Assembly: GCA_036556905.1 (NCBI GenBank)
Contig: DATBIM010000102.1
Location: forward strand, 70,714 to 134,713
DNA from: Candidatus Methylomirabilota bacterium
GTDB lineage: Bacteria > Methylomirabilota > Methylomirabilia > Rokubacteriales > CSP1-6
Length of the DNA stretch: 64,000 nucleotides
Reading direction: 5' to 3'
A program made the position numbers and the translations under genes. Below, one piece after another: positions 17,310 through 61,296 of this stretch. The notes beneath the pieces are model-generated. The model did not search any database. It saw nothing but the letters and a program-made list of their open reading frames with translations, and was not told the origin of the DNA. The stretch's first letter is position 1; each line of letters begins with the position of its first letter.

Positions 17310-17579
17310 GAGTTATTCTCCTGCTAGCAATCTGCCATCGGTCCGGATCCGGTCCCTGTCTCAGCGATTTCACGCGGCGGATGGTAGGCGAGTTTGCCAC
17401 TTTCGTCCATCCGACCAAGGTCTCATTTATGCCGGTATGGCGTTGTGGTGTGCTCGCCGGGTGACACGATTGCCGATCGGGGGATGGCGGGCCCGCTGGT
17501 CCGGCAGTACAATCGTGCCCCCTCGTCCGCTGGCTGAAGGCGCGCAGCCTCGCCGCGCGGGTTGGGGCTGGGAGGCTCA

Positions 17580-19004: not shown

Positions 19005-19008
19005 CGCC

Positions 19009-22000
19009 GTGGCCGACTTCTTCATCCGCCGCCCCATCGTTGCCATCGTCATCGCCATCCTCACCGTGCTGCTCGGGACCTATTCGCTCCTCCGGCTCAG
19101 CTTCGAACAGTACCCCTTCCTGGCCCCACCGACCATCCGGGTCACCGCCAACTATCCAGGCGCTTCGGCGGTGGCGGTGGAGCAGTCCGTGGCCACCCCG
19201 ATCGAGCAGGAGGTCAACGGCGTCGATCGGATGATCTACATGAAGTCGTCGAACACCAGCGATGGCCGCATGCAGCTCGACGTCAACTTCGAGGTCGGCG
19301 TCGACCAGGACACCGCCAATGTGCTGACCCAGAACCGGGTCTCGTCGGCCCAGGCCCGCCTGCCCCAGGAGGTCGTGGCCCAGGGCGTCACCGTGAAGAA
19401 GCAGAGCCCCAGCATCCTCATGCTGATCTCCCTCTATTCCCCCGGGGGCAGCTACGACGCGAACTTCCTGATCAACTACGCCTCGATCAACCTGCGTGAT
19501 CAGATTCTGAGAATTCCCGGCATCGCCCAGGTCGATCTCTTCGGCGGCACCGACTACGGCCTGCGCATCTGGCTCCGCCCCGACAAGCTCGCCAAGCTGG
19601 GCCTGACCCCGTCCGACGTGATCTCGGCGATCAAAGAGCAGAATCTCCAGGCGCCGGCCGGCCGGATCGGGCAGGCGCCAACGCCCGCCGATCAAGCGTT
19701 CACCTTCACGGTGAGCGCGCCGGGCCGCCTCGTGACCACCGAGGAGTTCGAGAACATCATCATCCGCGAAGCCGCCACCGGCTCGCCGGTGCGTATCAGG
19801 GATATCGGGCGCGCCGAGCTCGGCAGCCAGGACTACAACTCGTTCGGCCGGCTGAACGGCAAGCCCTCCGGAGCGATGGCGGTCTACCTGCTCCCCGGCG
19901 CAAACCAGCTCAAAGCGTCCGAGACGATCTACCACACCATGGCCACAGCCAAGGGGTTGTTCCCGCCGGATCTCGACTACACGATCGTTTACGACACCAC
20001 CCCGGCGGTGGAGGCCTCCATCCACGAGATCGTGAAGACCTTCGTGGAGGCGCTGATCCTCGTCACGCTCGTCGTGTTCATCTTCCTCCAGAATCTGCGG
20101 GCCACGATCATTCCGCTCCTGACGGTGCCCGTCTCGATCGTGGGCACCTTCATCTTCTTCCCGCTCCTCGGCTTCTCGGTCAACACGCTCTCGATGTTCG
20201 GCCTGGTGCTGGCCATCGGCATCGTGGTGGACGACGCGATCGTCGTCGTCGAGGCGGTCATGCACCACATCGAGCACGGCATGGCCCCGCGCGAGGCGAC
20301 GGTACAGGCCATGAAGGAAGTGTCGGCGCCGGTGGTGGGGATCGCGCTCATCCTGTCGGCCGTGTTCATCCCCGTCGCCTTCCTCGGCGGCCTCACCGGG
20401 CAGATGTATCAGCAGTTTGCGCTCACCATCGCTATTTCGGTGCTGCTGTCGGCCTTCAGCGCTCTCTCGCTGTCGCCCGCGCTCTCCGCCATGCTCCTCA
20501 AGCCCGCCCGCGCTCCCCGCGGCCCGCTCGGCGTGTTCTTCCGCGGATTCAACCGGGTGTTCGACACCGCAACGAAGGGCTACGTCGGCGTGTGCCGGAT
20601 TCTCATCCGGCGCGCGGTGGTCACGGTCCTGGTGGTGGGGGTGGTGGTGGTCGGGGTCGGCCTGCTCGGCCGCGCCCTGCCCGCCGGGTTCATTCCGGAA
20701 GAGGATCAGGGTCTGTTCGGCGTCAACGTGCAGCTCCCGCCGGCGGCCTCGCTGGAGCGGACGAGCGCCGTGCTGCGCCGGGTCGAGGAGATCCTCGCCA
20801 AGGTCGAGGGGGTTGATTCCTATCAGACGATTGGCGGCTATGGCGCCGTTACCAGCACCTACCAGCCAAACTTCGGGAGCATCTTCGTTCGCCTCAAGCC
20901 GTGGGAGGAGCGGCATGAGGAGGCGCTACACGTGAGGGGCATCATGGCCCGAATGCAGCGGGAGCTGGCCGCGATCCCGGAGGCCGTGGCCTTTCCGTTC
21001 AACATCCCGACCATCTCCGGCTTCGGCGCGTCGTCGGGCTTCAACTTCCTCCTTCAAGACCGGAGCGGCACGCTGAGCGTGGAGCAGCTCGGCGCTCAGA
21101 CGCGAGCCTTCCTGACGGCAGCGCGCGAGCGGCCCGAGTTTGCCTCGCTCTTCACGGCATTCGACCCCACGTATCCACAAGTGAAAGTCGAGCTGGACCG
21201 GGAGAAGGCGCGCACGCTCGGGGTGCCCGTGAACGAGGTCTTCCAGGCCATGTCGGCGGCGATGGGCGGCACCTACGTGAACGACTTCAACCGCTTCGGG
21301 CGTCTCTACCGCGTGTATGTCCAGGCTGACGCCGACTACCGTCGCAAGCCCGGCGACATCGGCGACGTCTATGTCCGTAGCAAGACGACCAACACCATGA
21401 TCCCGCTCTCGACCCTCGTGACCATCACCTCGATTCCGGGAACGGAGCTCACCACCCGCTTCAACCTGCTGCGTTCGGTCGAGATCAACGGGGCCCCCGC
21501 GCGTGGGGTCAGCTCCGGGCAAGCCCTGGCCGCCCTCGAGGAGGTCTTCCGGCAGACGATGCCCAAGGAGATAGGCTTCGCCTATTCCTCCCTGTCCTAT
21601 CAGGAAAAGATCGCGCCCCCCGCCACGCCGACGTTCGTCCTGGCCATCGTGTTCGTCTTCCTGCTCCTGGCCGCGATGTACGAGAGCTGGCGCCTGCCGT
21701 GGGCCGTGCTGCTGGGCTCACCGCTGGTGGCGCTGGGTGCCTTCTTCGGGGTGTGGCTCGCCGGTTACGACAACAACGTCTACGTGCAGATCGGTCTGAT
21801 CATGCTCGTCGGGCTCGCCGCCAAGAACGCGATCCTGATCGTGGAGTTCGCCAAGGCCAAGCACGAGCAGGGCCAATCGGTGGACGAGGCCGCGCTGGAG
21901 TCCGCCCGGCTGCGCTTCCGGCCCATCCTGATGACGGCGTTCGCCTTCATCCTCGGAGTTGTGCCGCTGGTGCTGGCCAGCGGGGCGGGGGCCGGCGCCC

Positions 22001-22179
22001 AGAACGTCATGGGCACGGCGGTGTTCTGGGGCATGCTGATCGCTACCGCGCTGGGGGTCTTCCTGATTCCCGGGAACTTCGCCTTCATCGAGGGGTTGGG
22101 CCGGAAGCGCGCGCCGGCGAAGCAGCCGGCGGCCCCGCCGGAGGCGCCGGCCCCCGTGCCCGGCAGGCAGCACGCATGA
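19009..22179 (+). CDS. RND multidrug efflux permease (HAE1, AcrB/MexB family)
   Basis: 1056 aa; 'MADFFIRRPIVAIVIAIL' N-terminus; 12 TM with two large periplasmic loops. Confidence 0.85.
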   Translation: MADFFIRRPIVAIVIAILTVLLGTYSLLRLSFEQYPFLAPPTIRVTANYPGASAVAVEQSVATPIEQEVNGVDRMIYMKSSNTSDGRMQLDVNFEVGVDQDTANVLTQNRVSSAQARLPQEVVAQGVTVKKQSPSILMLISLYSPGGSYDANFLINYASINLRDQILRIPGIAQVDLFGGTDYGLRIWLRPDKLAKLGLTPSDVISAIKEQNLQAPAGRIGQAPTPADQAFTFTVSAPGRLVTTEEFENIIIREAATGSPVRIRDIGRAELGSQDYNSFGRLNGKPSGAMAVYLLPGANQLKASETIYHTMATAKGLFPPDLDYTIVYDTTPAVEASIHEIVKTFVEALILVTLVVFIFLQNLRATIIPLLTVPVSIVGTFIFFPLLGFSVNTLSMFGLVLAIGIVVDDAIVVVEAVMHHIEHGMAPREATVQAMKEVSAPVVGIALILSAVFIPVAFLGGLTGQMYQQFALTIAISVLLSAFSALSLSPALSAMLLKPARAPRGPLGVFFRGFNRVFDTATKGYVGVCRILIRRAVVTVLVVGVVVVGVGLLGRALPAGFIPEEDQGLFGVNVQLPPAASLERTSAVLRRVEEILAKVEGVDSYQTIGGYGAVTSTYQPNFGSIFVRLKPWEERHEEALHVRGIMARMQRELAAIPEAVAFPFNIPTISGFGASSGFNFLLQDRSGTLSVEQLGAQTRAFLTAARERPEFASLFTAFDPTYPQVKVELDREKARTLGVPVNEVFQAMSAAMGGTYVNDFNRFGRLYRVYVQADADYRRKPGDIGDVYVRSKTTNTMIPLSTLVTITSIPGTELTTRFNLLRSVEINGAPARGVSSGQALAALEEVFRQTMPKEIGFAYSSLSYQEKIAPPATPTFVLAIVFVFLLLAAMYESWRLPWAVLLGSPLVALGAFFGVWLAGYDNNVYVQIGLIMLVGLAAKNAILIVEFAKAKHEQGQSVDEAALESARLRFRPILMTAFAFILGVVPLVLASGAGAGAQNVMGTAVFWGMLIATALGVFLIPGNFAFIEGLGRKRAPAKQPAAPPEAPAPVPGRQHA

Positions 22180-50379: not shown

Positions 50380-51147
50380 TCAGCCGATGACGCGGCCTCC
50401 CATGACGCGGATCGTGTCACCGGTGACGTAGGCGGAGGCGTCGGAGGCGAGGAACAGGCAGGCGTCCGCGATATCTTCCGGGCGGCCCAAACGGCGGAGC
50501 GGGACCTTCTTGAGCTCCTCCGGTGAGCTTGGCGGGGCCTGACGGAACTCGGGGTACCACTCGGCGTAGCGCCGCTCGGTATCGATGAATCCCGGCACCA
50601 CCATGTTGGCACGGATGCCGAAGGGCCCCAGCTCGGCGGCCAGCGCCCGGACCAGGCCCAGGAGCCCGGTCTTGGCCGTGGTGACCGCCGTGGTGTTGGG
50701 GCGCCCGGTGAGGCTCGACATCCCGCCGAGCGCGATGATGCTGCCCCGCCCCCGCTCCTTCATCCCGGGCACGACCGCCCGGGCCAGGTAGAAGGCCGAG
50801 TGGAGATCGACGGCCAGGACGTGGTGCCACTCCGCGAGCGACGTCTCGGTGAGGGCCTTGTGCGGGCGGATGGCCGCGTTGCAGACGAGGACATCGATGG
50901 CGCCCAGCGCGGCCAGGCCCTGGGCGACCATCGTCTCCACGGCGGCGGCGTCGGCCACGTCGGCGAGCACAGTGGTCACGCGCCCCCCGCTCTTGCGGCA
51001 CTCGGCGGCGACGGCTTCCAGCTCCTCGCCGTTCGCCCGGGTGTTGAGCACCAGATCCGCGCCCTCGGCGGCGAACGCCAGCGCGATGGCCCGGCCGATG
51101 TTGCGGCTGGCCCCCGTGATGAGCGCGACCCGGCCCCGGAGCTGATC
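50380..51147 (-). CDS. SDR-family oxidoreductase
   Basis: GTG start giving 'MPDQLRGRVALITGASRNIGRA'; 'CNAA','TTAKTG'; the upstream portion of the track ORF is an overlap artefact. Confidence 0.65.
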   Translation of the reverse strand, partial: DQLRGRVALITGASRNIGRAIALAFAAEGADLVLNTRANGEELEAVAAECRKSGGRVTTVLADVADAAAVETMVAQGLAALGAIDVLVCNAAIRPHKALTETSLAEWHHVLAVDLHSAFYLARAVVPGMKERGRGSIIALGGMSSLTGRPNTTAVTTAKTGLLGLVRALAAELGPFGIRANMVVPGFIDTERRYAEWYPEFRQAPPSSPEELKKVPLRRLGRPEDIADACLFLASDASAYVTGDTIRVMGGRVIG

Positions 51148-51158
51148 CGGCACGGAGC

Positions 51159-52145
51159 TCAGGACTGCAGCGCGAACTTCTGGAACGTGTGGCAGCCCGC
51201 CGGCACGTAGCCGCGGCTGCCGGCGAACGTCCAGGTGACCTCGCTCACGTAGACGTCGTGCTGGCTGTCCACGGCGATGCCGTGAGGGGCCGCGAAGCTG
51301 CCGGCCGCCACCGGATCCGGACCTTCGCCCCAGCGCGCGAGCACACGACCGTCGCGGTCGTAGACGCTGACACGGCCCGAGCGATTCGTACCGGCCGGTC
51401 CATACCGCCGCGAGGTCTGGCCCGGCTGCCACCACAGCTCGGAGACATACGCCCGGCCCTGGCCATCGAACACGAGGTGGGTCGGTCGCCGGGTATCGGT
51501 CCATTCGCTGAGGTACTCGCCGTCGGGGTTGAAGATCTGGATGCGGTCGTTCTCCCGGTCGCAGACGAACACACGCCCGTCCGCAGCCACCGCGATGCCG
51601 TGGGGCAGGAAGAACTCGCCGGGCCCCTGACCGGCCACGCCCCACGAGCGCTTCAGCTCGCCGGTGGGGGAGAAGCGGTGCACGCGGCAGTTCCCGTAGC
51701 CGTCGGAGATGTAGAGATCGCCCTTGGGTCCGATCGCCACGTTGGTCGGGCGGTTGAAAGGACCGCCAGGCTTGGTGGCAGTGGCCGTGTTCTTGCCGTC
51801 GTAACCCGTGTCAGAGGGCGTGTTCATGGTCCCCAGCGTCATCAGGAGCTTGCCGCTGGGAGTGAACTGCCGCACCGTGTGGTTGCCGTCATCCGTGGCG
51901 TAGACCGTCCCGTCGGGGCCGATCGTGATGCCATGGGTCCGCAGGGTGAACTGGCCCTCCCCCCACGAGCGCAGGAAGTTCCCCTTCTGGTCGTAGACGA
52001 TGATCGGGTGATCGCCGCGGCAGATCAGGTAGACCCGGTTCTCGCCGTCGACGGCCACCCCGGCCACGTCACGGTGCTCCCAGCCGGCGGGAAGCTGCTC
52101 CCAACCTTCGACGACCCCGTAGCTCGTCGTGCTCACCTGCGCCAT
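51159..52145 (-). CDS. NHL-repeat six-bladed beta-propeller protein (PAL/SMP-30-like)
   Basis: Repeated 'P.G(I/V)A(V/I)..DG.(V/I)YV.D..N.R(I/V)' blades. Confidence 0.6.
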   Translation of the reverse strand: MAQVSTTSYGVVEGWEQLPAGWEHRDVAGVAVDGENRVYLICRGDHPIIVYDQKGNFLRSWGEGQFTLRTHGITIGPDGTVYATDDGNHTVRQFTPSGKLLMTLGTMNTPSDTGYDGKNTATATKPGGPFNRPTNVAIGPKGDLYISDGYGNCRVHRFSPTGELKRSWGVAGQGPGEFFLPHGIAVAADGRVFVCDRENDRIQIFNPDGEYLSEWTDTRRPTHLVFDGQGRAYVSELWWQPGQTSRRYGPAGTNRSGRVSVYDRDGRVLARWGEGPDPVAAGSFAAPHGIAVDSQHDVYVSEVTWTFAGSRGYVPAGCHTFQKFALQS

Positions 52146-52242: not shown

Positions 52243-55218
52243 TCAGCGTACCCGGTAGGACTGGACCAGCCGGTTGCCGGCGCGATCGATCTCGACGACG
52301 ACGGTGGCCCGGTCAGGATCGCGCTGCAGCGGGATCAGCACTGCCAGCAGGCCCGAGGGCGGATGGTCGTCGATCCTGACGATCATGTCGCCGGCCTGAA
52401 TGCCGAGCCGGCCGGCCAGGCGGGGATCCGTCACCGCGAAGCCCTCCGCGCTGAGGACGCCCTCGATCAGGTTCGACGTCACCTGCCAGCGCCGGGCGGC
52501 GCGTGGAGCCAGCGGATTGAGCAGCGTGACCGAAGGCCCGTCCCCGGCCAGCGCGGCAAGATCCCGGACCGCCGGCGGGGGATCGGCGGCCAGCGGGCCG
52601 GGCGCGGCGCCACGGGCGGCGCGCTGATCGATCTGCCGGGTAACACCCGGCCGGGTAACACCCGCGGCCACGTCCTGGGCGCCGCCGCGCCCGACGACTG
52701 GCTTCTCGGCTGACGATGACTCATGTCCCCGTGGTCGGTCTCCGCCGGTTCGTCCGAGGATGAGCGCACCGGCGATGAGCATGCCCCCGGCCAGTCCCAG
52801 GATGATCATGGTCGTCCTGATTCGCCGCGGCCTTCTTGCCGCGTTCGCTCCCAGCCCCACGATCGCGACGAGACCGGCGGCAGCCAGGGCCACGGCGACG
52901 AAGGGACGGTCCAGCGCGAAGCCGGCGCCATGGGCGACCGGGCGGAGCACGCCACGGACGGCGGCGGCCAGGACCGGCTCGTTCCTGACCGCGCGTGCGA
53001 AGGGCGGACTGAGCGTGTAGTAGGCGCGGACGAGCAGTCGACCCACGGGGGTGGTCCGGAGCGCCTGATCGCGGAACCGACGGAGCGTCCGGACCTCGAC
53101 GGTCAACCGCGAGCCGAAGGCCGCGGTGGCGATCACGCAGTCATCGTCGGCGTCGTCTTCTACCGGGACGGGGGCGATCAGATCGGCGAGCTTGACCACG
53201 AAGCCGTCTTCCCCGCCCTGGTTGGTCCTCTGAAAGGCGCCGGGCGTGGCGGGGAAGTCGGTGGCCAGGGTGAAGCCGGCCACCCACACGGCGCCGAGGG
53301 TCGCAGTGATGGCCTGACCGAAGTCCTGTCCGGCCGCCAGGTTGCCCGTTCCTCCGAATCTGATGATGTCCAGGCTGATGCCGTTCACGCCGCTGCGCTT
53401 GTTGACGACGACGTCCACATGGGACTGCGGGCATCCCGGAGGGAGGAGCGAGGGGTCGGTGCAGACCAGTTGATTGGCCACGAGCTGGACATCGCCGACG
53501 GCGTCGACCGCGACCGCCGTCGGGACGGCGCTGCTCGTGCTTCGCGACCAGGCGATGAGGCTGCCCGTCGCGTCGAGCCTGGTGACGAAACCCTCGGTGA
53601 GGCCGGTGAACACGTCACCACCGGTCGCGGGAAAGTTCGCCGACGTCGTGCTGCCCACGACGTGCGGACTTCCCGCCGTGTTGACGGCGATCCCGTTGCC
53701 GATGTCGGCGCCGGCCCCCCCGAGGAAGGTGGACCAGCCGAGGCTGGCGTCGGCGTTCACCCGAGCCACGAAGGCCTCGACCCCGAGCCCGGGCAGGGGC
53801 TGCAGGCTTCCGGCTGTCGTCGGGAAGTCCGCCGACAGGGTGAAGCCGGTCACGTAGGCCCGGCCGCTGCCGTCGAGCGCGATGGCGTTGGCGGTATCAT
53901 CGTTGTTGCCACCGAGAAAGGTCGAGTACTCGAGGACAGTGCCCAGGGCGCTCAGCCGGGTCACGAAGGCGTCGCGGCAATCGACGGGCGGATTCCCGCA
54001 CGTCCCGCCGCCCAGATCAGGCTGCAACGCACTGGCGATGGGGAAGTCGATGGACCTGGTGCCCCCGGCCACGTGAGCCCGGCCACTGCTATCGACGGCG
54101 ATCCCGAACGCGGTGTCGAGTCCGGAACCGCCCAGGAAGGTGGAGTACGCGATCACCCCGTTGGGATCGAGCTTGACGACGAAGGCGTCGAAGTCGCCCT
54201 GGGGCAGCGCCTGGAAGCCGGCCGGGGTGGTCGGGAAGTCCGCCGAGTCGGTGAACCCGGCCAGGTAGGCGTTGTTGTTGGCGTCCACGTCGATGGCCCG
54301 GCCGCCGTCGGTGCCCGATCCGCCGATGTACGCCGAGTAGAGCAGGACCTGCCCGTTGGCGTCGAGCTTGCTCACGAACGCATCGAACCCGCCGGCCAGC
54401 GCGGTGGTGCCAATCTCCGGAAAATTGAGCGACGCCGTGTCGCCGGTCACGTAGACATTGCCCCCGACGTCCACGGCCACGCCGAAGGCCTGGTCGTCGC
54501 CGCTGCCCCCGAGATGCGTCGCCCACGCGATGACGGGATCGATCACCAGCGGGTGCGAGCGATCATGTGGCCCCAGCGCGAAGCCGGCTTGCGCCGGTCC
54601 GCGCACGACCCACGCCACCGGGATCTCACGCCGTGCCCGGTCGATCACCTGGTAAGCAACTGGCCGGCTGAGTCGCAGCGGGGGCCCGCCCGTGGTCAGA
54701 ACCAGATCACCGGCGCCGTCCACGGCAGCGTCCCGGATGCCCTCGAATCCCAGCGCGATAGCCCCGGGGTCAGCACCAGGCCGGATGACGAACTCCTGCT
54801 CGATCCGCGATCCGGCGTGGGCCCTGTAGATGGCGTCGATTCCGGAATAGGCATTCCGATAGACGACGCCGTCGTAGGTCGGCACGTTCGTGTACCAATT
54901 CGCGGGGTTCCGCCCGAGGAAGTAATGCGTCCGGCCTGGCAGTGGCCGGAGGCCGATGATCTCGGAGTCCTGATGCGCTCCCAGGAGGCGAAGCTGAACC
55001 CTCTGGCCGGCGCGCCGGTCGGCCAGGATCACTCCGGACTGGGTGACGAAGAGCGCGTAGCCGGGACCGCGTGAGAGAAACTTTACGCGGGCGTCGGCCT
55101 GCCCGCGATTGGGCTCGAAGACGACTGGCAGGGGAGGGCCGGCGCTACCGGCGGCGGGAGCCGCGAGCACCGCAACCGCCAGTCCCACAGCGAGGCAGGT
55201 CCCTCGCATCGGCGCCAT
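52243..55218 (-). CDS. large secreted SBBP (beta-propeller repeat) protein with C-terminal hydrophobic anchor and PDZ-like domain (paralogue 1)
   Basis: Signal peptide; N-terminal 'VVFEPNRGQADARVKFLSRGPGYALFVTQ'; 'GGSGxDxAxGIAVDxxGNxYVxGxTxSxDFP' repeated >8 times; 'CVIATAAFGSRLTVEVRTLRRFRD' plus 2 TM; C-terminal 'GIQAGDMIVRIDD' PDZ-like. Confidence 0.65.
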   Translation of the reverse strand: MAPMRGTCLAVGLAVAVLAAPAAGSAGPPLPVVFEPNRGQADARVKFLSRGPGYALFVTQSGVILADRRAGQRVQLRLLGAHQDSEIIGLRPLPGRTHYFLGRNPANWYTNVPTYDGVVYRNAYSGIDAIYRAHAGSRIEQEFVIRPGADPGAIALGFEGIRDAAVDGAGDLVLTTGGPPLRLSRPVAYQVIDRARREIPVAWVVRGPAQAGFALGPHDRSHPLVIDPVIAWATHLGGSGDDQAFGVAVDVGGNVYVTGDTASLNFPEIGTTALAGGFDAFVSKLDANGQVLLYSAYIGGSGTDGGRAIDVDANNNAYLAGFTDSADFPTTPAGFQALPQGDFDAFVVKLDPNGVIAYSTFLGGSGLDTAFGIAVDSSGRAHVAGGTRSIDFPIASALQPDLGGGTCGNPPVDCRDAFVTRLSALGTVLEYSTFLGGNNDDTANAIALDGSGRAYVTGFTLSADFPTTAGSLQPLPGLGVEAFVARVNADASLGWSTFLGGAGADIGNGIAVNTAGSPHVVGSTTSANFPATGGDVFTGLTEGFVTRLDATGSLIAWSRSTSSAVPTAVAVDAVGDVQLVANQLVCTDPSLLPPGCPQSHVDVVVNKRSGVNGISLDIIRFGGTGNLAAGQDFGQAITATLGAVWVAGFTLATDFPATPGAFQRTNQGGEDGFVVKLADLIAPVPVEDDADDDCVIATAAFGSRLTVEVRTLRRFRDQALRTTPVGRLLVRAYYTLSPPFARAVRNEPVLAAAVRGVLRPVAHGAGFALDRPFVAVALAAAGLVAIVGLGANAARRPRRIRTTMIILGLAGGMLIAGALILGRTGGDRPRGHESSSAEKPVVGRGGAQDVAAGVTRPGVTRQIDQRAARGAAPGPLAADPPPAVRDLAALAGDGPSVTLLNPLAPRAARRWQVTSNLIEGVLSAEGFAVTDPRLAGRLGIQAGDMIVRIDDHPPSGLLAVLIPLQRDPDRATVVVEIDRAGNRLVQSYRVR

Positions 55219-55273
55219 CCTACGGGCAGGAATCTCCGACGTCCAGAGCAGATTGAGAGCGCCGGCCCTGTGC

Positions 55274-55519
55274 TCAGGATCGGGCTCGCTCCTCGGGGTT
55301 CCGATCCACGATGCACAGACGACAGATCCGGTCGTCGAGGTCGGCGCTCAGCCGGTGCAACAGCGACCGGGGGACCTTGAGGAGCGCCTCCACCTCGTAG
55401 GCCAGCAGGTCGAGCCCCGCGATCACGCTGGCCCGCCAGGGATCGAGGAAAAAGTCGGTTCTGAACGCCTCGTCCGTGACCATCTTGCCGAGCGCCCGCT
55501 CCACCGATCTCTGGCTCAT
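55274..55519 (-). CDS. small conserved-looking helical protein (81 aa), possible sigma54-dependent target; weak likeness to NHLP/Nif11-type leader regions
   Basis: GAGGAGG-5nt-ATG; 'ALGKMVTDEAFRTDFFLDPWRASVIAGLDL'; C-terminal 'ICRLCIV'; track ORF is extended upstream to 55579 by an in-frame ATG. Confidence 0.5.
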   Translation of the reverse strand: MSQRSVERALGKMVTDEAFRTDFFLDPWRASVIAGLDLLAYEVEALLKVPRSLLHRLSADLDDRICRLCIVDRNPEERARS

Positions 55520-55544
55520 CCTGTCCTCCTCGCTCCCAGGAGAG

Positions 55545-55560
55545 AGCAAGAGGCACGCCG
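55545..55560 (-). promoter_or_regulatory. candidate sigma54 (-24/-12) promoter CGGCGTG-N4-TTGCT
   Basis: GG-N10-GC spacing; 9 of 12 consensus positions (TGGCACG-N4-TTGCW); -12 GC ~20 nt upstream of the SD and ~30 nt upstream of the ATG; inverted and direct repeats 85-130 nt further upstream. Confidence 0.4.
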
Positions 55561-55696
55561 AATGAGTGGTGTCGTGCAAGTGGCTGAGACGGTGACGATG
55601 GTGACATGGCGAACCGCCGCGTCGATCGGAGGCTGTCGGGGTTGCCGCAGTGGCGCTGCGGATCCTGCTACAGACTGTCGAGAAATCTACAGCCGC

Positions 55697-57817
55697 TCAG
55701 GCGCCGTCCAGGCCGAAGCGTTTGAGGCGCGTGTAGAGCTGAGAGCGGGTCAGCCCCAACAGCCTGGCCGCGCGGGACTTGTTGCCCCGCGCCTTCTGCA
55801 TCGCGTCGGCGACGATCTGCCGCTCCGCCTCGGCCAGGGGAGTCACCGGCGCGTCCGCGGCCGGCGGGGCGGTCTCATCGCTTCGGACCTCCCGGCGCGG
55901 CGTGATGCCCAGCTGGGCCGCGGTGATGAGACTGCCATCGGACAGGATCAGCGCCCTCTCCACGGCGTTCTGCAGCTCCCGGATGTTGCCCGGCCAGCTG
56001 TGGGCGATCAGCGCCTCGCGGGCGTCACGGCTCAGCCCGGGCTCCCCCTTGCCCATCCGCGCGCCGAGCGTGTGCACGAAGTGGTCGGCCAGGAGCAGCA
56101 CGTCGTCGCCGCGCTCGCGCAGCGGGGGCAGGTGAACGGCGAAGACGTTGAGCCGATAGAAGAGATCCTCGCGGAAGCGGCCGTCCGCCACCGCCTGCTC
56201 CAGATCCCGGTTGGTGGCCGCCACGATGCGGACATCGGCCTTCAGCGTCGCGGTGCCGCCCACGCGCTGGAACTCGCGCTCCTGCAGCACGCGGAGCAGC
56301 TTGGCCTGCACGGGCGGGGTGAGCTCGGCGACCTCGTCGAGGAAGAGCGTGCCTCCCGCGGCCAGCTCGAAGCGCCCCGGCTTCTGGCGGTCGGCTCCCG
56401 TGAAGGCCCCGCGCTCGTGGCCAAACAGCTCCGACTCCAGCAGGGCCTCGGGCAGCGCCGCGCAGTTGACGGCGACGAACGGCCCGTCGGCGCGGACGCT
56501 GGCGTAGTGGATGGCGCGCGCCACGATCTCCTTGCCCGTGCCGCTCTCGCCGGTGAGCAACACCGTGGTCTCGGCGGGCGCCACCTTGGCCGCGCGCGAG
56601 AGGGCCTCGCGGACGGCCGGGGAGCGGCCGATGATCTGATCGAAGCCGTACTGCTGGCCCAGGGATTCCCGTAGCGAGGCCAATCGCTCCTCCAGCTGGC
56701 GGGCCCGACCCTCGGCGGCGGCCAGGCGCCGCTGCTCGTCGCCCAGGCGCTGGTGCTGCAGGGCCAGAACCACGGACTCCGCGACGTGCTCGGCGATCTC
56801 TACGTCGGCCCCGTCGAACCAGTATGGACGTCGCTTGCCGAAGTACAGCGCGCCGCCGACCACCCCACCACGGTGAAGGGCCACGCCGAGGGCCGAGCGC
56901 CCGCCGTCGTCCAGCATGAGGCGGTCCCCCGGGCTCTTGGGATCGAGCTCGACGAGCGCATCGCGAACCAGGATGGGCTGGCCCGCGCGCATTTTCTCGG
57001 CGAAGGAGAAGCTCTCGAGATCCATCCTCCAGGGCGCCGGCTCGGCCGGCGGCGCGCTGTCCACCTCGACGAGCTTCTCCAGCTCGCGCCCGCTGGAGGA
57101 GAGCAGGCAGATCCCCATCACGTCGAAGTCGAGGACCGGCTTCACCACCTCGGCGAGCCGGTCGAAGACGTCCTTGACGTCCAGGCTCGTGGCCAGCGCC
57201 GGGCCCAGCGCGGCCAGGCCGTGCAGGCGGCGCAGCCGACGTCGCTCCCGTTGCAGCAGCACGGTGCTCTGAATGAAGGGCGCGATGAGATCGGCGACCT
57301 GCCGGCCCGTGGCCAGGTGCTGGTCGGTGTAGGCGCCGGCGGTCAGGCTGCTGGCGGCCAGGCAGCCCACCACCCGGCCCCCGCTGTACAGGGGGAGGAG
57401 CAGGGCCGCGCGAAATCCCGCCTGGCGGACCCGATGCTCGATCGCGCCTTCGCGGGCGACGCGATCGTCGGCGCGAAGATCATCGACGCGGAGCGCCTCG
57501 CCGTCGAACACGGACCGAAGCCCCCAGTCGCCGACCCGATAGCGGCCCTCCGGCGAGAAGCCGGTGGTGTAGTGCCGGGCGTGCAGCACCGGCCCGTTCT
57601 TGGCGTGCTCGGCGAAGATGCTGAAGGTCCGGCGGTCGTCGTCGAGGTAGGCGATCACCAGCCGGTCGTGGGGGATGAGCCGCTCGAGCTTGGCCGAGAA
57701 ATCGGCGAGAAAGCGTTGGGGATCGAACTCGTCCTGCATGGAACGGCCGATGGCCGCCAGGCATTCGACCAGGTCGGCCAGCGCCGTATCGTCGGCCACG
57801 GTCGTCATGGCCCCCAA
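55697..57817 (-). CDS. sigma54-dependent Fis-family transcriptional activator (GAF-GAF-AAA+-HTH enhancer-binding protein)
   Basis: Two GAF domains; '[11 protein letters not shown]' Walker A; 'GAFTGA' sigma54-contact motif; 'RELQN'; C-terminal Fis HTH '[25 protein letters not shown]'. Confidence 0.85.
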
Positions 57818-57856: not shown

Positions 57857-60800
57857 TCAGCGTACGCGATACGAGTGCACGAGCCGCGTCCCACCGCGGT
57901 CGATCTCCACGAGCACCGTCGCGCGGTCGGGATCGCGCTGGACCGCGCTCAGCACGGCGAGCAGGCCGCGCGGTGGACGCCCGCCGACGCTGACGATGGT
58001 GTCGCCGGCCTCGATGCCGAGCCCGCGGGTCAGGCGGGGATCGGTCACCACGAAGCCGTCCGCGCCGAGGACACCCTCGATCAGATCTGACCTCACCGCC
58101 CAGCGGCGGGCGTCGCGTGAAGCCAGTGGATTGATCAACCGCACCGATCCCTCCCGGCTTGTGAGGTCGCGCAGGAGGTCCCGCGTTGCTGGCGCTGGGG
58201 GTGTGGTGAGCGGCCTGGGGCCAGGCCCGCTCTCCGCACGCCGGGCCGTCGGCGTGGGCCGGGTGGATGGAGCCGGGGCGGCGAGTATCTCACTCACGCC
58301 AGGCTCCGGCCGGGCTTCCCGCGCCGCGGCTGGTGAGGGCGCTGGCAATTGCCCGGGCCCCGCCGGCATCCGCTCCGGCCGGGCCAGAGCCAGCACAATG
58401 ACGAGCAGCACTGCTCCGACGATGAGGCAGGCGAGCGTCACACCCAGGACCGGCCTCGTTTTCCTTCGCGTCACCATCCCCAGCGCCAGCATCATTGCCA
58501 GCCCAATTGCCGTGAGCGCGATGGTCACGAAGGGCCTCTCGACAACAACGCCGACACCGAGGGCGACCGGGCGAAGCAGGCCGCGGACAACGGCGGCCAG
58601 CCGTGGGTTCCTCGCGACCGTGCGCGCCAGTGGCGGGCTCAGCCGGTAATAGGCGCGGACGAGCGCACGGCCGGCCGGGTGGGTCATCAGCACACGATCA
58701 CGGAACTGCCGGAGGGTCTGGACCTCGGGAGCCAGCGGTGAGCCGAAGGCAGCGGTGGCGATTAGGCAGCCGCCAACGCCTCCTTCCGGAAAAAATCCTC
58801 CCTCCGGAGGGCCACTGGGAGGGTTCGTGGCGATCGGATCGATCGGGTCCATCAGCTTGACCACGAAAGCGTCGGCTCCACCCTGGTGGGCCGGCTGCAC
58901 GGCGCCGGGTGTCGTGGGGAAGTCAGCCGCGCGGGTGAAACCCGCCACCCAGAAAGAAACGACCCCGCGGGTGACGATGGCCTGGCCGAAGTCCTGGCCG
59001 GCCGCCAGGTTGCTTCGTCCCCCGAACGTGATGATGTCGAGCCGGTGGCCGTCGCCGCCGCTGCGCTTGTCGACGACGACGTCGACGTGGGATTCTGCGC
59101 ATCCCGGAGGGATGGTGGGCATCGTGCAGACGAGGGTGTTGGCGACGAGACGAACATCGGCGAAGTTGTTGAGGGCGACCGCCGTCGGCACGGCGCTGCC
59201 GGTGCTCCGGGACCAGAGGACAGCGCTGCCTGCCGCGTCGAGCTTCGTCACGAAACCATCGGTAGCGCCGATGAACGAATCTCCCCCGGTGGCCGGGAAG
59301 TTCGCCGAGGCCGTGCTCCCGACCACATGAGAATGTCCCGCCGTGTCGACCGCGATGCCGTTGGCAGTATCCGAGCCGCTGCCGCCCAGGTACGTCGACC
59401 AGCCGAGACTGCCGTCGGCGTCCACCCTCGCGACGAAGGCGTCGAGCCCACCGCGTGGAGTGGGCAGCAGGCTCTCGAGGGTCGTCGGGAAGTTCCCCGA
59501 CAGGGTGAAGCCGGTGAGGTACGCATTGACGTTACGGTCCAGGGCGATGCCGTTGGCAGCGTCGTCGTCGCTGCCACCGAGGAAGGTCGAATACTCGAGG
59601 TCGGTCCCAAGGGGATTCAGCCGAGCCACGAAGGCGTCGCGGCAGGGGAAGGTGTCCGGCGCGATCCCGCAGGTGCCGCCGCCCGGTGTCGGCTGGAGCG
59701 CATTGCTGATGGGAAACTCGCTGGACCGGGTGCCACCGGCCACGTGGGCGCGGCCGTTGACATCCACGGCGATCCCGAGCGCTGTGTCGCTTTCAGCCCC
59801 ACCCAGGTAGGTGGAGTAGAGGATGGCGCCGGTGGGGTCGAGCTTGACGACGAAGCCGTCGAGGCCTCCCCCGTGGACCGGCTGGACGGTGCCGGCCGTG
59901 GTGGGGAAGTCAGGAGAGTCGGTGAATCCCGCTAGATAGACATTTGCCGCTGAATCCGCGGCGATGGCCCGGGCTCCGTCGGTGCCGCTGCCGCCGATAT
60001 AGGCGGAGTAGATGAGGCTCTGGCCGTTAGCATCGATCTTGGTCACGAAGGCGTCGGTCCCTACCGGGAGGCCAGAAGCATCTGGGAAGTCAGGCGACGT
60101 CGTGTCGCCGGTCACAACGACGTTGCCGACGGCGTCCAGGGCGACGCCGAAGGCCTGGTCGTCACCGGTGCCACCCAGGAGCGTCGCCCAGGTGATGACA
60201 GGATCGATCACCAGCGGAAGCGAGCGGTCGTAGCGGCCGAGCCAGAACCCTACCTCCCTCGGCCCACGAACTATCCACGCGGCCTGAATCCCACGGTGGT
60301 GCCCGTCGATCACCTGGTGGGCCACTGGCCGGCTGAGCCGCACCTCGCTCTTCGTTGTGGCCAGCACGAGGTCGCCGGCGCCGTCCACGCTCGCCGCCTG
60401 GACCCCATCGAGCTCCAGCCTGATCGCGTCGGGATCAGCGCCAGGCTGGACCAGGAAGTCCTGCTCGATGCGCAGCGCGGCGTCAGCCCTGTAGACCGCG
60501 TCGATCCCCGGGTAGACCTCCCGGTACGCGACCCGCGCATACGTGGGCACATTCGTCCGCCAGTGCAGGGGATTCTGCCCGATGAAGTAGTGAATCCGCC
60601 CCGGCAGGGGCTCGAGACCGACCACCTCGGGTTCCTCTCGCGCCCCGACGAGACGCAGCCGCACCCGTTCGCCGGTGCGACGATCGGCGAGCATCGTCTC
60701 GGCGGCCGTGATGAAGAGCGTGAAGCCCGGCCCGCGCGACAGGAACTTCACCTGGGCATCCACCTGTCCACGGTTGGCTTCGAAGACGACCGGCCCGCGC

Positions 60801-60877
60801 GCCCCGGCGGCGCCGGGCACGAAAACCATGAAAAGCGCCGCAGCCACACCCGTGCCGATCCATGTCGCTCGTGGCAT
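57857..60877 (-). CDS. large secreted SBBP beta-propeller protein with C-terminal anchor and PDZ-like domain (paralogue 2)
   Basis: Start at MPRATW after AGGAGG-6nt; same architecture as paralogue 1 ('VVFEANRGQVDAQVKFLSRGPGFTLFIT', SBBP repeats, 'CLIATAAFGSPLAPEVQTLRQFRD', TM, C-terminal 'GIEAGDTIVSVGG'). Confidence 0.65.
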   Translation of the reverse strand: MPRATWIGTGVAAALFMVFVPGAAGARGPVVFEANRGQVDAQVKFLSRGPGFTLFITAAETMLADRRTGERVRLRLVGAREEPEVVGLEPLPGRIHYFIGQNPLHWRTNVPTYARVAYREVYPGIDAVYRADAALRIEQDFLVQPGADPDAIRLELDGVQAASVDGAGDLVLATTKSEVRLSRPVAHQVIDGHHRGIQAAWIVRGPREVGFWLGRYDRSLPLVIDPVITWATLLGGTGDDQAFGVALDAVGNVVVTGDTTSPDFPDASGLPVGTDAFVTKIDANGQSLIYSAYIGGSGTDGARAIAADSAANVYLAGFTDSPDFPTTAGTVQPVHGGGLDGFVVKLDPTGAILYSTYLGGAESDTALGIAVDVNGRAHVAGGTRSSEFPISNALQPTPGGGTCGIAPDTFPCRDAFVARLNPLGTDLEYSTFLGGSDDDAANGIALDRNVNAYLTGFTLSGNFPTTLESLLPTPRGGLDAFVARVDADGSLGWSTYLGGSGSDTANGIAVDTAGHSHVVGSTASANFPATGGDSFIGATDGFVTKLDAAGSAVLWSRSTGSAVPTAVALNNFADVRLVANTLVCTMPTIPPGCAESHVDVVVDKRSGGDGHRLDIITFGGRSNLAAGQDFGQAIVTRGVVSFWVAGFTRAADFPTTPGAVQPAHQGGADAFVVKLMDPIDPIATNPPSGPPEGGFFPEGGVGGCLIATAAFGSPLAPEVQTLRQFRDRVLMTHPAGRALVRAYYRLSPPLARTVARNPRLAAVVRGLLRPVALGVGVVVERPFVTIALTAIGLAMMLALGMVTRRKTRPVLGVTLACLIVGAVLLVIVLALARPERMPAGPGQLPAPSPAAAREARPEPGVSEILAAPAPSTRPTPTARRAESGPGPRPLTTPPAPATRDLLRDLTSREGSVRLINPLASRDARRWAVRSDLIEGVLGADGFVVTDPRLTRGLGIEAGDTIVSVGGRPPRGLLAVLSAVQRDPDRATVLVEIDRGGTRLVHSYRVR

Positions 60878-61296
60878 CGTCGACCTCCTGGGGAGGCGTT
60901 CGCGATGCCGGCGCATGGAGCAACTCCCGCGCCACCCAGGAACGACGAGGCCATCCGGCCAGATGCTGAAGGCTACTTATCGGTGATTGTTGCAAAGTCG
61001 CCACGTGTGGACCGTCCAGCCGCCGCTGATGTGGTTCTCTGCGCGGCCAGTGGCCGGCGAATCTCCGACAGCGAATCTGTCGAACCACGGTGCTGCGGGC
61101 ACCTTGGCGTGTCCCGGGCCCGGGGCTATGGCGATACCTGCTGGGGGTTGCCGAGCGCAAGGCCGTTCCCAATGGCACTCGCCTGGCTGTGGGTGCAGTG
61201 CTGGCGCAGGCATTCACGAGATTTTGAGGGTTCCGGACGCCGGCTTTACGCGCCGTTGACGTCGCGCGCGCTACAACAAGTCTGGAGGAGGGCCAG

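What the first reader, a model, noticed from the sequence alone, without database searches (positions are those of the whole stretch)
55274..55519. 81-aa ORF under the putative sigma54 promoter, with faint NHLP/Nif11-leader-like N-terminus
The ORF has a strong SD (GAGGAGG-5nt-ATG) and a predicted all-helical product. The stretch 'ALGKMVTDEAFRTDFFLDPWRASVIAGLDL' loosely echoes the conserved core of nitrile-hydratase-type leader peptides (KAW.DP.FK..LL.DPKAAL). However, there is no Gly-Gly cleavage motif, only two Cys (ICRLCIV), and no RiPP-modifying enzymes nearby. It more likely encodes a small regulatory or assembly factor for the SBBP proteins. It is worth a look because the track ORF mis-extends it and standard annotation would probably call it hypothetical.
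Basis: inference. Interest (0 to 1): 0.5.

Follow-up and report, generated by a model that had tools for sequence, protein, structure and literature searches.

The report
Sigma-54-driven Os1348-family small protein
The 81-codon ORF is a real gene for a small all-helical protein of the named but functionally unsolved Os1348 family (nitrile-hydratase-leader clan); it sits behind a conserved sigma-54 promoter, and in relatives it usually heads an efflux-pump operon, so it is probably a protein-binding accessory or regulator, not an antibiotic-peptide precursor.

Summary
Window 55274..55519 (-) encodes an 81-aa protein with a GAGGAGG-5nt-ATG ribosome site. A GG-N10-GC sigma-54 promoter lies 25 nt upstream, and tandem TGT-N10-ACA-type sites lie just after the stop codon of the adjacent GAF-AAA+-HTH activator.

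NCBIfam NF038399 (Os1348 family NHLP clan protein) scores 62 bits against a cutoff of 40. The AlphaFold model matches the Os1348 crystal structure 6LK7 (TM 0.70-0.84). Relatives in MAGs already carry this name.

It fails the tests for a classical NHLP/RiPP precursor:
- no Gly-Gly motif;
- a 13-aa charged, disordered tail that is not rich in Cys, Ser or Thr;
- no maturase or C39-ABC exporter anywhere in the 64 kb.

Among 51 non-redundant related loci, 35/49 keep the sigma-54 promoter, 16/33 have the activator directly upstream, and 26/41 run straight into efflux-pump genes, usually with overlapping stop and start codons. In this genome the pump is replaced, exactly at the 3' end of the small gene, by an SBBP/CFI-box protein, an NHL protein and an SDR.

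A dedicated SBBP assembly factor is therefore unlikely. I favour a folded cytoplasmic binding module that modulates the induced system. This is inferred, not shown. Interest is moderate.

The parts
55274..55519 (-). 81-aa Os1348-family (NHLP clan, LigA-like fold) small protein. The folded core is residues 1-68. Residues 69-81 form a variable, disordered tail.
   Evidence: NF038399 62.3 bits against a cutoff of 40, and PF14407 35 bits. AF2 pLDDT 85.6, and 6LK7 is the top fold match. Core pairwise identity is 0.58 against 0.16 for the tail.
55525..55531 (-). Shine-Dalgarno GAGGAGG, 5 nt before the ATG
   Evidence: Read directly from the sequence. Purine-rich GGAG-type sites sit at the same place in relatives.
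55545..55560 (-). Sigma-54-type -24/-12 promoter, CGGCGTGCCTCTTGCT (GG-N10-GC)
   Evidence: An element of the same kind lies 15-55 nt before the start codon in 61/89 loci (35/49 non-redundant groups) against 1.6% of random positions. In the window the pattern occurs 4 times against 0.6 expected.
55656..55692 (-). Tandem putative activator-binding sites (UAS). These are CTGTAGATTTCTCGACAG, which is TGT-N10-ACA, followed by TGTAGCAGGATCCGCAG. They begin 4 nt after the activator's stop codon.
   Evidence: Aligned and conserved in 22 loci, including loci where the activator is not adjacent. Exact TGT-N10-ACA occurs at -260..-60 in 21/78 loci against 2.6% of random windows. The site is unique in the window.
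55697..57817 (-). Sigma-54 enhancer-binding protein with GAF-GAF-AAA+(GAFTGA)-HTH domains, NifA-like
   Evidence: TIGR01817 nifA scores 413 bits, below its equivalog cutoff, alongside many other EBP models. Orthologous EBPs lie directly upstream of the small gene in 16/33 non-redundant groups.
52243..55218 (-). SBBP2: DUF7948 + SBBP beta-propeller repeats + CFI-box-CTERM domain + TM + C-terminal domain. It starts 56 nt after the small gene and is probably co-transcribed.
   Evidence: No terminator or sigma-70 promoter lies between the genes. The same arrangement is present in the independent contig L093 and is consistent with the spacing on the P0002 contig.
50380..52145 (-). NHL-repeat beta-propeller (51159..52145) and SDR (50380..51153), which continue the same-strand gene string
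   Evidence: Pfam. The same order is found in L093.
57857..60934 (-). SBBP1 (paralogue of SBBP2) with its own sigma-54-like promoter TGGCGCGGGAGTTGCT at 60919..60934. The true start is probably ATG 60877.
   Evidence: SBBP1-EBP-small synteny is shared with L007 at 82-91% nt identity.

Best explanation
Shown:
- The ORF encodes a folded, signal-peptide-less (hence cytoplasmic) five-helix protein of the Os1348 family (NHLP clan, ECOD 'LigA-like' fold).
- It is the first cistron behind a conserved sigma-54 -24/-12 promoter with NifA-type TGT-N10-ACA upstream sites.
- It lies next to a GAF-GAF-AAA+-HTH enhancer-binding protein.
- In most relatives it overlaps by 1-4 nt the start of the periplasmic adaptor gene of a tripartite MFP-RND-OMF efflux pump.
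- In this genome the pump genes have been replaced, exactly at the 3' end of the small gene, by SBBP2-NHL-SDR.

Inferred:
- When the activator's GAF domains sense their signal, sigma-54 transcription produces the small protein together with whatever envelope or efflux cargo follows it.
- The small protein acts as a folded protein-binding module, not as a RiPP precursor. By analogy with Os1348 it is probably a dimer.
- It most plausibly modulates the induced system, either by feedback on the activator/sigma-54 circuit or by control of the pump from the cytoplasmic side. The logic would resemble PspA-PspF or GlnK-AmtB.
- Its retention here with non-pump cargo favours a role tied to the regulatory module over the pump itself.
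For: Family and fold:
- NF038399 scores 62.3 bits against a cutoff of 40, and all 35 close homologues hit it.
- The profile matches 6LK7 at E=2.4e-5. The AF2 model matches 6LK7 at TM 0.70-0.84 with rmsd 1.6-3.3 A.
- In the crystal, residues 2-79 of Os1348 form one six-helix dimeric domain, which is not a leader-plus-core layout (PMC7726476).

Selection:
- Codons 1-70 show 16 synonymous and 1 non-synonymous change against L007.
- Polar residues Q3, E7, K/R12, D16, R20, E42, D62, R64 and R67 are near-invariant across 183 diverse members. This suggests a conserved binding partner.

Regulation:
- The promoter is present in 35/49 non-redundant groups against 1.6% of random positions.
- The upstream sites are conserved.
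- The EBP carries GAFTGA (sequence) and lies upstream in 16/33 groups.

Cargo:
- Efflux genes lie downstream in 26/41 groups. Independent Pfam annotation confirms this.
- Other cargo includes an ECF sigma factor, an FAD monooxygenase, small secreted proteins and SBBP. What stays constant is the small gene and its promoter.

Not a RiPP:
- No GG motif; the tail is R/E/P/A/G/S-rich with 2% Cys.
- No maturase was found among the scanned ORFs of the 64-kb window or in the neighbours inspected.

Precedent: the LigA-like fold serves as a protein-binding subunit or domain in LigA, TglI and NHase alpha (PMC12353581).
Against: - No direct evidence identifies any binding partner. AlphaFold-multimer and two-hybrid tests could not be run.
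- The conserved-core/hypervariable-tail pattern (0.58 against 0.16 identity) is also what a leader-plus-core precursor shows.
- In Pseudomonas Os17 the prototype sits with GNAT, HEXXH-peptidase and SagB-like genes. Loss of the RND pump raised intracellular Os1348 there, which the authors read as export.
- Some groups (L031/L034/L053/L062/L066) follow an ECF sigma/anti-sigma pair with no EBP and no convincing sigma-54 promoter. The protein therefore cannot be an obligate EBP partner.
- Seven of 27 fully assessable groups have neither an EBP nor efflux genes adjacent.
- The predicted 5' UTR is only about 12-14 nt, with the SD at its very 5' end. This is my own count.
- Maturases could lie outside the 64 kb.
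Confidence: 0.45

Rival explanations
1. The protein is a precursor or cargo: a RiPP-like or unmodified bacteriocin or signal peptide. Its conserved 68-aa domain would be a protein-like leader and its variable 13-aa tail the product. The co-encoded tripartite pump would handle it, and the maturases or protease would be encoded elsewhere.
For: - It belongs to the NHLP clan.
- The core is conserved and the tail hypervariable.
- It is tightly linked to MFP/RND/OMF transport genes. Haft et al. found that NHLP leaders track their transporters more closely than their maturases (PMC2887384).
- The Os17 pump mutant accumulates Os1348, and the Os1348 mutant loses some antibiotic activity.
- ComX pheromone precursors share the fold group.
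- Two copies occur in L006 and L048.
Against: - There is no GG or other conserved cleavage motif. 'GG' occurs in only 10 of 93 proteins.
- The tail is charged and Pro-rich, with almost no Cys, Ser or Thr enrichment.
- No maturase, C39 peptidase or ABC exporter was found in the 64-kb window or in any inspected locus.
- GNAT/M20 genes occur only in L001 and L004.
- RND pumps take substrates from the periplasm or the membrane, not folded cytoplasmic proteins (established knowledge).
- In this genome there is no pump next to the gene at all.
Confidence: 0.2
2. The protein is a dedicated cytoplasmic accessory subunit of the RND pump, made stoichiometrically by translational coupling. In this genome it would be a leftover kept after the pump was replaced.
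For: - The stop codon of the small gene overlaps, by 4 nt as a rule, or abuts the MFP start in at least 25 of 41 groups.
- Truncated fusion-like products join the small domain to MFP or DedA fragments.
- The pump association exists even where the regulator is an ECF sigma factor rather than an EBP.
Against: - The protein is under strong purifying selection here although there is no adjacent pump (16 synonymous to 1 non-synonymous change).
- It occurs with several kinds of non-pump cargo.
- The MFP is a periplasmic lipoprotein (lipobox LAGC in L007), and RND permeases expose little cytoplasmic surface.
- No such accessory is known for RND pumps (my own knowledge).
Confidence: 0.15
3. One reading: the protein is a regulatory or assembly factor specific to the neighbouring SBBP beta-propeller proteins.
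For: - It lies between two SBBP/CFI-box paralogues.
- Both units carry sigma-54-like promoters.
- The small-gene-to-SBBP2 arrangement recurs in independent assemblies.
Against: - SBBP genes adjoin the small gene in only one of 51 non-redundant groups.
- The closest orthologue outside this lineage, L007, has an MFP downstream instead.
- The SBBP proteins have signal peptides and are extracytoplasmic, whereas the small protein has none.
Confidence: 0.07

Closest known systems
Os1348 of Pseudomonas sp. Os17 (PDB 6LK7; NCBIfam NF038399 'Os1348 family NHLP clan protein'; Pfam PF14407 Frankia_peptide)
   Same: - Size (81 against 85 aa) and all-helical fold (TM 0.70-0.84).
- HMM membership above the curated cutoff.
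- No GG motif.
- It is the first gene of its cluster.
- It is genomically or functionally linked to a NodT-type RND efflux system.
   Different: - About 25% sequence identity.
- Os1348 is controlled by Gac/Rsm, not sigma-54.
- Os1348 is followed by GNAT, HEXXH-peptidase and SagB-like genes, which are absent here.
- The subfamily-specific DDRICRL motif, with Cys66, is absent from Os1348.
- In this window the neighbours are SBBP/NHL/SDR genes, not a pump.
NHLP and Nif11 leader-peptide RiPP precursors (TIGR03793, TIGR03798; proteusins, prochlorosins)
   Same: - Distant sequence relationship within the same clan: TIGR04509 scores 19.5 bits, and TIGR03793 is hit weakly by 2 of 35 relatives.
- A long, structured, helical, conserved N-terminal region followed by a variable C-terminus.
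- Association with a membrane-fusion-protein transport gene.
   Different: - All scores fall below the model cutoffs.
- No Gly-Gly site and no Cys/Ser/Thr-rich core.
- No cyclodehydratase, LanM or radical-SAM enzyme.
- No C39-ABC exporter; the transporter is RND-type.
Small proteins encoded as the first product of sigma-54 operons that feed back on the system (PspA-PspF; GlnK-AmtB under NtrC)
   Same: The logic is the same: an EBP-activated sigma-54 promoter drives a small cytoplasmic protein that is co-transcribed with membrane or envelope cargo.
   Different: There is no sequence or fold relationship. The interaction with the EBP or the transporter is purely hypothetical here. This is an analogy from my own knowledge and was not tested.

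Membership tests
Os1348 family NHLP clan protein (NF038399 / PF14407) | HMM score above the curated cutoff | tested here: met
   NF038399 scores 62.3 bits against a cutoff of 40 over residues 5-66, and 35 of 35 relatives also hit it. PF14407 scores 35.2 bits, below its gathering score of 48.
Os1348 family NHLP clan protein (NF038399 / PF14407) | Compact multi-helix fold of the 6LK7 crystal structure | tested here: met
   The AF2 model (pLDDT 85.6) matches 6lk7_A/B/C at TM 0.70-0.84 with probability 1.00. The profile matches 6lk7 at E=2.4e-5.
Os1348 family NHLP clan protein (NF038399 / PF14407) | Homodimer | not testable with these tools
   The dimer is seen in the crystal.
Os1348 family NHLP clan protein (NF038399 / PF14407) | Prototype gene neighbourhood: GNAT + HEXXH peptidase + SagB-type dehydrogenase downstream | tested here: not met
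   Absent from the window and from related loci. GNAT/M20 occur only in L001 and L004, on the opposite strand.
Os1348 family NHLP clan protein (NF038399 / PF14407) | Adjacent RND efflux system | tested here: inconclusive
   Met in 26 of 41 related groups. Not met in this window, where no MFP homologue lies next to the gene and the only RND pair is 33 kb away.
NHLP leader peptide RiPP precursor (TIGR03793) | HMM score above cutoff / similarity to the nitrile hydratase alpha subunit | tested here: not met
   The window protein does not hit TIGR03793. TIGR04509 scores 19.5 bits against a cutoff of 34. NHase alpha 4ob1 matches at E=0.59.
NHLP leader peptide RiPP precursor (TIGR03793) | Gly-Gly cleavage motif at the end of the conserved region | tested here: not met
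   There is no GG in the sequence. The conserved region ends in DDRICRL.
NHLP leader peptide RiPP precursor (TIGR03793) | Hypervariable core rich in Cys/Ser/Thr | tested here: not met
   The tail is variable (identity 0.16) but rich in R/E/P/A/G/S, with 2% Cys and a median length of 13 aa.
NHLP leader peptide RiPP precursor (TIGR03793) | Clustered maturase (cyclodehydratase, LanM, rSAM) and/or a C39-ABC + HlyD exporter | tested here: not met
   None in the scanned ORFs of the 64-kb window or in the inspected loci. The MFP of relatives scores 28.7 bits against a cutoff of 156 for TIGR03794.
Sigma-54-dependent gene | GG-N10-GC -24/-12 element at a fixed distance, conserved in orthologues, with an EBP and upstream activator sites | tested here: met
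   The EBP carries GAFTGA. Actual rpoN dependence could not be tested.

The most novel reading that the evidence does not exclude
The subclade found mainly in Methylomirabilota/Rokubacteria MAGs (229 clusters at E<=1e-10 in a family of 1070) may not consist of RiPP precursors at all. It could be a previously unrecognised class of small LigA-like-fold regulators: the obligatory first product of NifA-like-EBP/sigma-54 (or ECF-sigma) stress operons, which then binds the activator or the tripartite efflux pump to tune efflux and envelope remodelling.
Probability: 0.3. Interest if true: 0.6.

Novelty: new variant of a known kind. Interest (0 to 1): 0.4.

Why it matters
Automatic pipelines label Os1348/PF14407 proteins as RiPPs or 'NHLP clan', but no product has ever been shown, not even for the prototype.

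This lineage shows a large branch of the family with no maturases. It has a conserved sigma-54/NifA-type control region and, in most relatives, translational coupling to RND efflux pumps. If the protein is a modulator and not a precursor, two things follow. Genome-mining counts of 'RiPP precursors' would be inflated. And a new small-protein layer of efflux or envelope regulation would become testable in the poorly known soil phylum Methylomirabilota/Rokubacteria.

For this particular window the practical gains are a corrected start codon, a family name and a defined sigma-54 regulon that also includes the two SBBP/CFI-box proteins.

Tried and rejected
- Nif11: no hit in NCBIfam or Pfam at E<=10.
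- RNA element: Rfam finds nothing at E<=1 in 55100..55800.
- Sigma-70 promoter or intrinsic terminator around the gene: none found.
- Metal- or disulfide-based function through Cys66: rejected as a family-wide feature, because Cys is present at that column in only 80 of 183 members and is absent from Os1348.
- Heavy-metal (Czc/Cus) pump: the linked RND permease scores best with the multidrug HAE1-type models, not with the CusA/CzcA model, so a metal-chaperone role is not favoured.
- GNAT/M20/TPR genes near the pump as hidden maturases: present only in the two related loci L001 and L004.
- Domain fusions as functional clues: the longer 'fusions' (P0089 with half an MFP, P0172 with a DedA/VTT fragment) look like deletions or frameshifts between adjacent genes.
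- Assembly chimera as the cause of the small-gene-to-SBBP2 junction: rejected, because the independent contig L093 shows it and the P0002 contig has the same 56-nt spacing to its next gene.
- Literature: a search for a sigma-54/RND/small-protein module found nothing relevant.
- The ORF-based neighbour clustering merged MFP and RND through miscalled ORFs. I replaced it with tblastn-based counts.

Full report
**1. The observation**

The minus strand of window 55274..55519 carries an 81-codon ORF. Its product is MSQRSVERALGKMVTDEAFRTDFFLDPWRASVIAGLDLLAYEVEALLKVPRSLLHRLSADLDDRICRLCIVDRNPEERARS.

- GAGGAGG lies at 55525..55531, 5 nt before the ATG at 55519.
- The mechanical ORF list extends the frame to a TTG at 55579, giving 101 aa. 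That extension contains the promoter element.
- The sequence has no Gly-Gly, two Cys (C66, C69), no signal peptide and no hydrophobic segment.

**2. It is a real gene of a named family**

- NCBIfam NF038399 'Os1348 family NHLP clan protein' scores 62.3 bits against a curated cutoff of 40 over residues 5-66.
- TIGR04509 'NHLP-related RiPP peptide' scores 19.5 bits, below its cutoff of 34.
- Pfam PF14407 Frankia_peptide scores 35 bits, below its gathering score of 48.
- The first protein search found 35 homologues. Those that carry an organism name are from Candidatus Rokuibacteriota MAGs, and the genome-contig loci are mostly Methylomirabilota/Rokubacteria. PGAP already names some of them 'Os1348 family NHLP clan protein'. 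All 35 hit NF038399, 30 weakly hit TIGR04509 and 2 weakly hit TIGR03793.
- A profile search found 519 proteins.
- An exhaustive HMM search of 1.84 billion cluster representatives found 1070 clusters at E<=1e-3 and 229 at E<=1e-10.
- Against the 91%-identical locus L007, codons 1-70 show 16 synonymous changes and 1 non-synonymous change. Codons 71-81 carry 8 non-synonymous changes.

**3. Structure**

- AlphaFold2 with the 35-sequence alignment gives mean pLDDT 85.6. It predicts five helices (3-15, 17-25, 27-34, 40-47, 51-67) and a low-confidence tail from about residue 68.
- The top Foldseek matches in the PDB are the three chains of 6LK7, the Os1348 crystal structure, at TM 0.70-0.84 and rmsd 1.6-3.3 A. 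Everything else has E>1, including the borosin precursor SonA and the proteusin DprE2.
- The alignment profile hits 6LK7 at E=2.4e-5 and nitrile hydratase alpha only at E=0.59.
- In the crystal, residues 2-79 of Os1348 form one six-helix domain that dimerises (PMC7726476).
- ECOD curators place PF14407 in a 'LigA-like' group with the NHase alpha, Nif11, ComX and DurB leaders, and also with LigA and the TglI N-domain, which are protein-binding subunits (PMC12353581).

**4. Conservation pattern**

- In 93 locus-derived sequences the core (residues 1-68) has mean pairwise identity 0.58 and the tail 0.16.
- Tails have a median length of 13 aa and are rich in R/E/P/A/G/S, with 2% Cys. 'GG' occurs in only 10 of 93 proteins.
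- Across 183 diverse members, Q3, V6, E7, G11, K/R12, T15, D16, F19, R20, F23, P27, G35, L38, E42, A45, L46, L61, D62, R64, I65 and R67 are nearly invariant.
- Cys66 is present in only 80 of 183 members and is absent from Os1348.

**5. Regulatory anatomy**

- CGGCGTGCCTCTTGCT (GG-N10-GC) lies at 55545..55560 (-), 25 nt before the ATG.
- Across the related loci with at least 80 nt of upstream sequence, an element of this type lies 15-55 nt before the start codon in 61 of 89 cases. At random positions in the same sequences the figure is 1.6%.
- After collapsing the loci to 51 groups at 85% identity, the figure is 35 of 49.
- An alignment of 230 nt of upstream sequence from 22 loci shows a second conserved block directly after the activator's stop codon: CTGTAGATTTCTCGACA-GTCTGTAGCAGGATCCGCAG (window 55656..55692). 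This is a tandem pair of the NifA-type TGT-N10-ACA shape. It is also present where the activator is not adjacent (L001, L014, L016).
- Exact TGT-N10-ACA occurs at -260..-60 in 21 of 78 loci against 2.6% of random windows. The 18-mer is unique in the window.
- The upstream gene (55697..57817, -) is a GAF-GAF-AAA+-HTH enhancer-binding protein with GAFTGA. Its best hit is the nifA model, below the equivalog cutoff.
- No sigma-70 promoter, terminator or Rfam RNA is detected around the gene.
- By my count the 5' UTR would be only about 12-14 nt. That is short but conserved within this subgroup.

**6. Genomic context elsewhere**

Ninety-five loci in all were collected from MAGs and metagenomes; the counts below rest on the 92 loci in hand plus the window. 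The counts use tblastn detection in 51 non-redundant groups:

| Feature | Groups |
|---|---|
| EBP on the same strand, ending less than 1.3 kb upstream | 16 of 33 |
| Efflux component (MFP, RND, OMF or MFS) starting less than 1.6 kb downstream | 26 of 41 |
| MFP within 400 nt downstream | 25 of 41 |
| Both EBP and efflux genes (of the groups assessable on both flanks) | 11 of 27 |
| Neither EBP nor efflux genes (same groups) | 7 of 27 |

- The MFP start usually overlaps the small gene's stop codon, by 4 nt as a rule and by a TGATG overlap in L007.
- Precomputed Pfam annotation independently shows Frankia_peptide followed by MFP, ACR_tran and OEP in L001, L004, L094 and the P0235 contig.
- The pump is of the HAE1/multidrug type with a NodT-type outer-membrane factor.
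- Other downstream cargo: an ECF sigma factor (L015, L025), an FAD monooxygenase, an MFS transporter and small secreted proteins.
- One subgroup (L031/L034/L053/L062/L066) is preceded by an ECF sigma factor plus a 71-aa zinc-finger anti-sigma, not by an EBP.
- No LanM/B/C, YcaO, radical-SAM/SPASM, ATP-grasp, SagB or C39-ABC gene was seen next to any copy. GNAT/M20/TPR genes occur only in L001 and L004.

**7. What is special in this window**

- The window and L007 (Candidatus Methylomirabilota MAG) are collinear at 82-91% nt identity through SBBP1, the EBP and the small gene. Similarity stops at the 3' end of the small gene.
- L007 continues with a lipoprotein MFP. The window continues, after 56 nt, with SBBP2 (52243..55218), an NHL-repeat protein and an SDR.
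- There is no homologue of that MFP anywhere in the window. The only MFP-RND pair (17538..22179) is unrelated and has no small gene.
- The small-gene-to-SBBP2 junction recurs in the independent contig L093, and the P0002 contig has its next gene at the same 56-nt spacing, so it is not an assembly artefact.
- SBBP1 has its own sigma-54-like element (60919..60934) 41 nt before a better start codon at 60877. The whole SBBP1-EBP-small-SBBP2 string therefore looks like one sigma-54 regulon.
- Pfam scans of the remaining large ORFs of the 64 kb show transporters, redox enzymes and a histidine kinase, but no RiPP machinery.

**8. Interpretation**

Shown:
- family membership;
- fold;
- purifying selection on the core;
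- a conserved sigma-54/UAS control region;
- frequent adjacency of the EBP;
- frequent translational coupling to a tripartite efflux pump;
- lineage-specific replacement of the pump by SBBP2-NHL-SDR.

Inferred: the protein is made first whenever the activator fires. It acts as a folded, probably dimeric, cytoplasmic binding module that modulates the induced system. What stays constant across varying cargo is the small gene with its promoter, which favours a role tied to the regulatory circuit, such as feedback on the EBP. The strong pump coupling and the ECF-sigma-driven subgroup keep a pump-side role alive.

The classical RiPP reading is disfavoured. There is no cleavage motif, the tail is charged and cannot readily be modified, there are no maturases, and the linked transporter type does not take cytoplasmic proteins. 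It is not excluded, however. The core/tail pattern, the clan membership and the Os17 data all point that way. In Os17 the pump mutant accumulates the protein and the Os1348 mutant loses some antibiotic activity.

**9. Novelty and score**

The gene is a clear member of a curated family and relatives are already auto-annotated, so the ORF itself is not new. The parts not described in the literature I could search are the sigma-54/NifA-type control, the maturase-free context, the systematic coupling to RND pumps and the cargo swap seen here. I rate it a new variant of a known kind, with interest 0.4.

Noticed in passing
window 60877..60934 (-): A second sigma-54-like promoter, TGGCGCGGGAGTTGCT (60919..60934), lies only 2 nt from the listed start of SBBP1. 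An in-frame ATG at 60877, preceded by GGAGG-6nt, starts a typical signal peptide (MPRATWIGTGVAAALFMVFVPGAAGA). SBBP1 is therefore probably 13 codons shorter than listed and sigma-54-dependent.
   Followed up: partly
window 52243..55218 (-) and 57857..60916 (-): Both SBBP paralogues carry the 'CFI-box-CTERM' domain (NF041770, 78-95 bits) in the middle of the protein (residues ~694-784), not at the C-terminus. It is followed by hydrophobic segments and about 200 further residues that end in a conserved domain resembling PDZ/GspC by eye (…IEAGDTIVSVGG…). This is an unusual topology for a supposed C-terminal sorting signal.
   Followed up: no
window 55274 / L007 8240: Synteny with the 91%-identical MAG locus L007 breaks exactly at the last ~10 codons of the small gene. 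MFP follows in L007 and SBBP2-NHL-SDR follows here. The recombination junction therefore lies inside the variable tail of the small protein.
   Followed up: partly
L031, L034, L053, L062, L066 (e.g. L034 2015..4260): A subgroup of small-gene-MFP-RND operons is preceded by an ECF sigma factor and a 71-aa zf-HC2-like anti-sigma, with the small gene only 5 nt after it, in place of an EBP/sigma-54 promoter. Conversely, in L015 and L025 the small gene is followed by an ECF sigma factor. This looks like a possible regulatory cascade.
   Followed up: partly
L006 7547..7861 and 10001..10252: Two family members lie 2 kb apart beside an Mla (MlaA/C/D/E/F) lipid-transport cluster and an MMPL transporter, with no EBP and no sigma-54 motif.
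   Followed up: no
L001 14597..18135 and L004 7127..10764 (opposite strand): A conserved GNAT + M20 peptidase + TPR + 170-aa secreted protein set converges on the pump operon in these two related loci only. It is superficially reminiscent of the GNAT and peptidase genes of the Os17 cluster.
   Followed up: partly
P0089 (234 aa), P0172 (182 aa): In these database proteins the first ~56 residues of the small protein are joined to the C-terminal half of an MFP or to a DedA/VTT fragment. They are probably deletions or frameshifts between adjacent genes, not true fusions.
   Followed up: partly
window 51159..52145 (-): The NHL-repeat protein downstream of SBBP2 gives its best NCBIfam hit to the scytonemin-cluster protein ScyF (94 bits, far below the cutoff of 350).
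   Followed up: no
L060, L077, L079, L082 (minus strand upstream of the small gene): Bactofilin-like genes (…IEGRVDGKIEL…, recognised by eye only) lie divergently upstream of the small gene in one subgroup.
   Followed up: no
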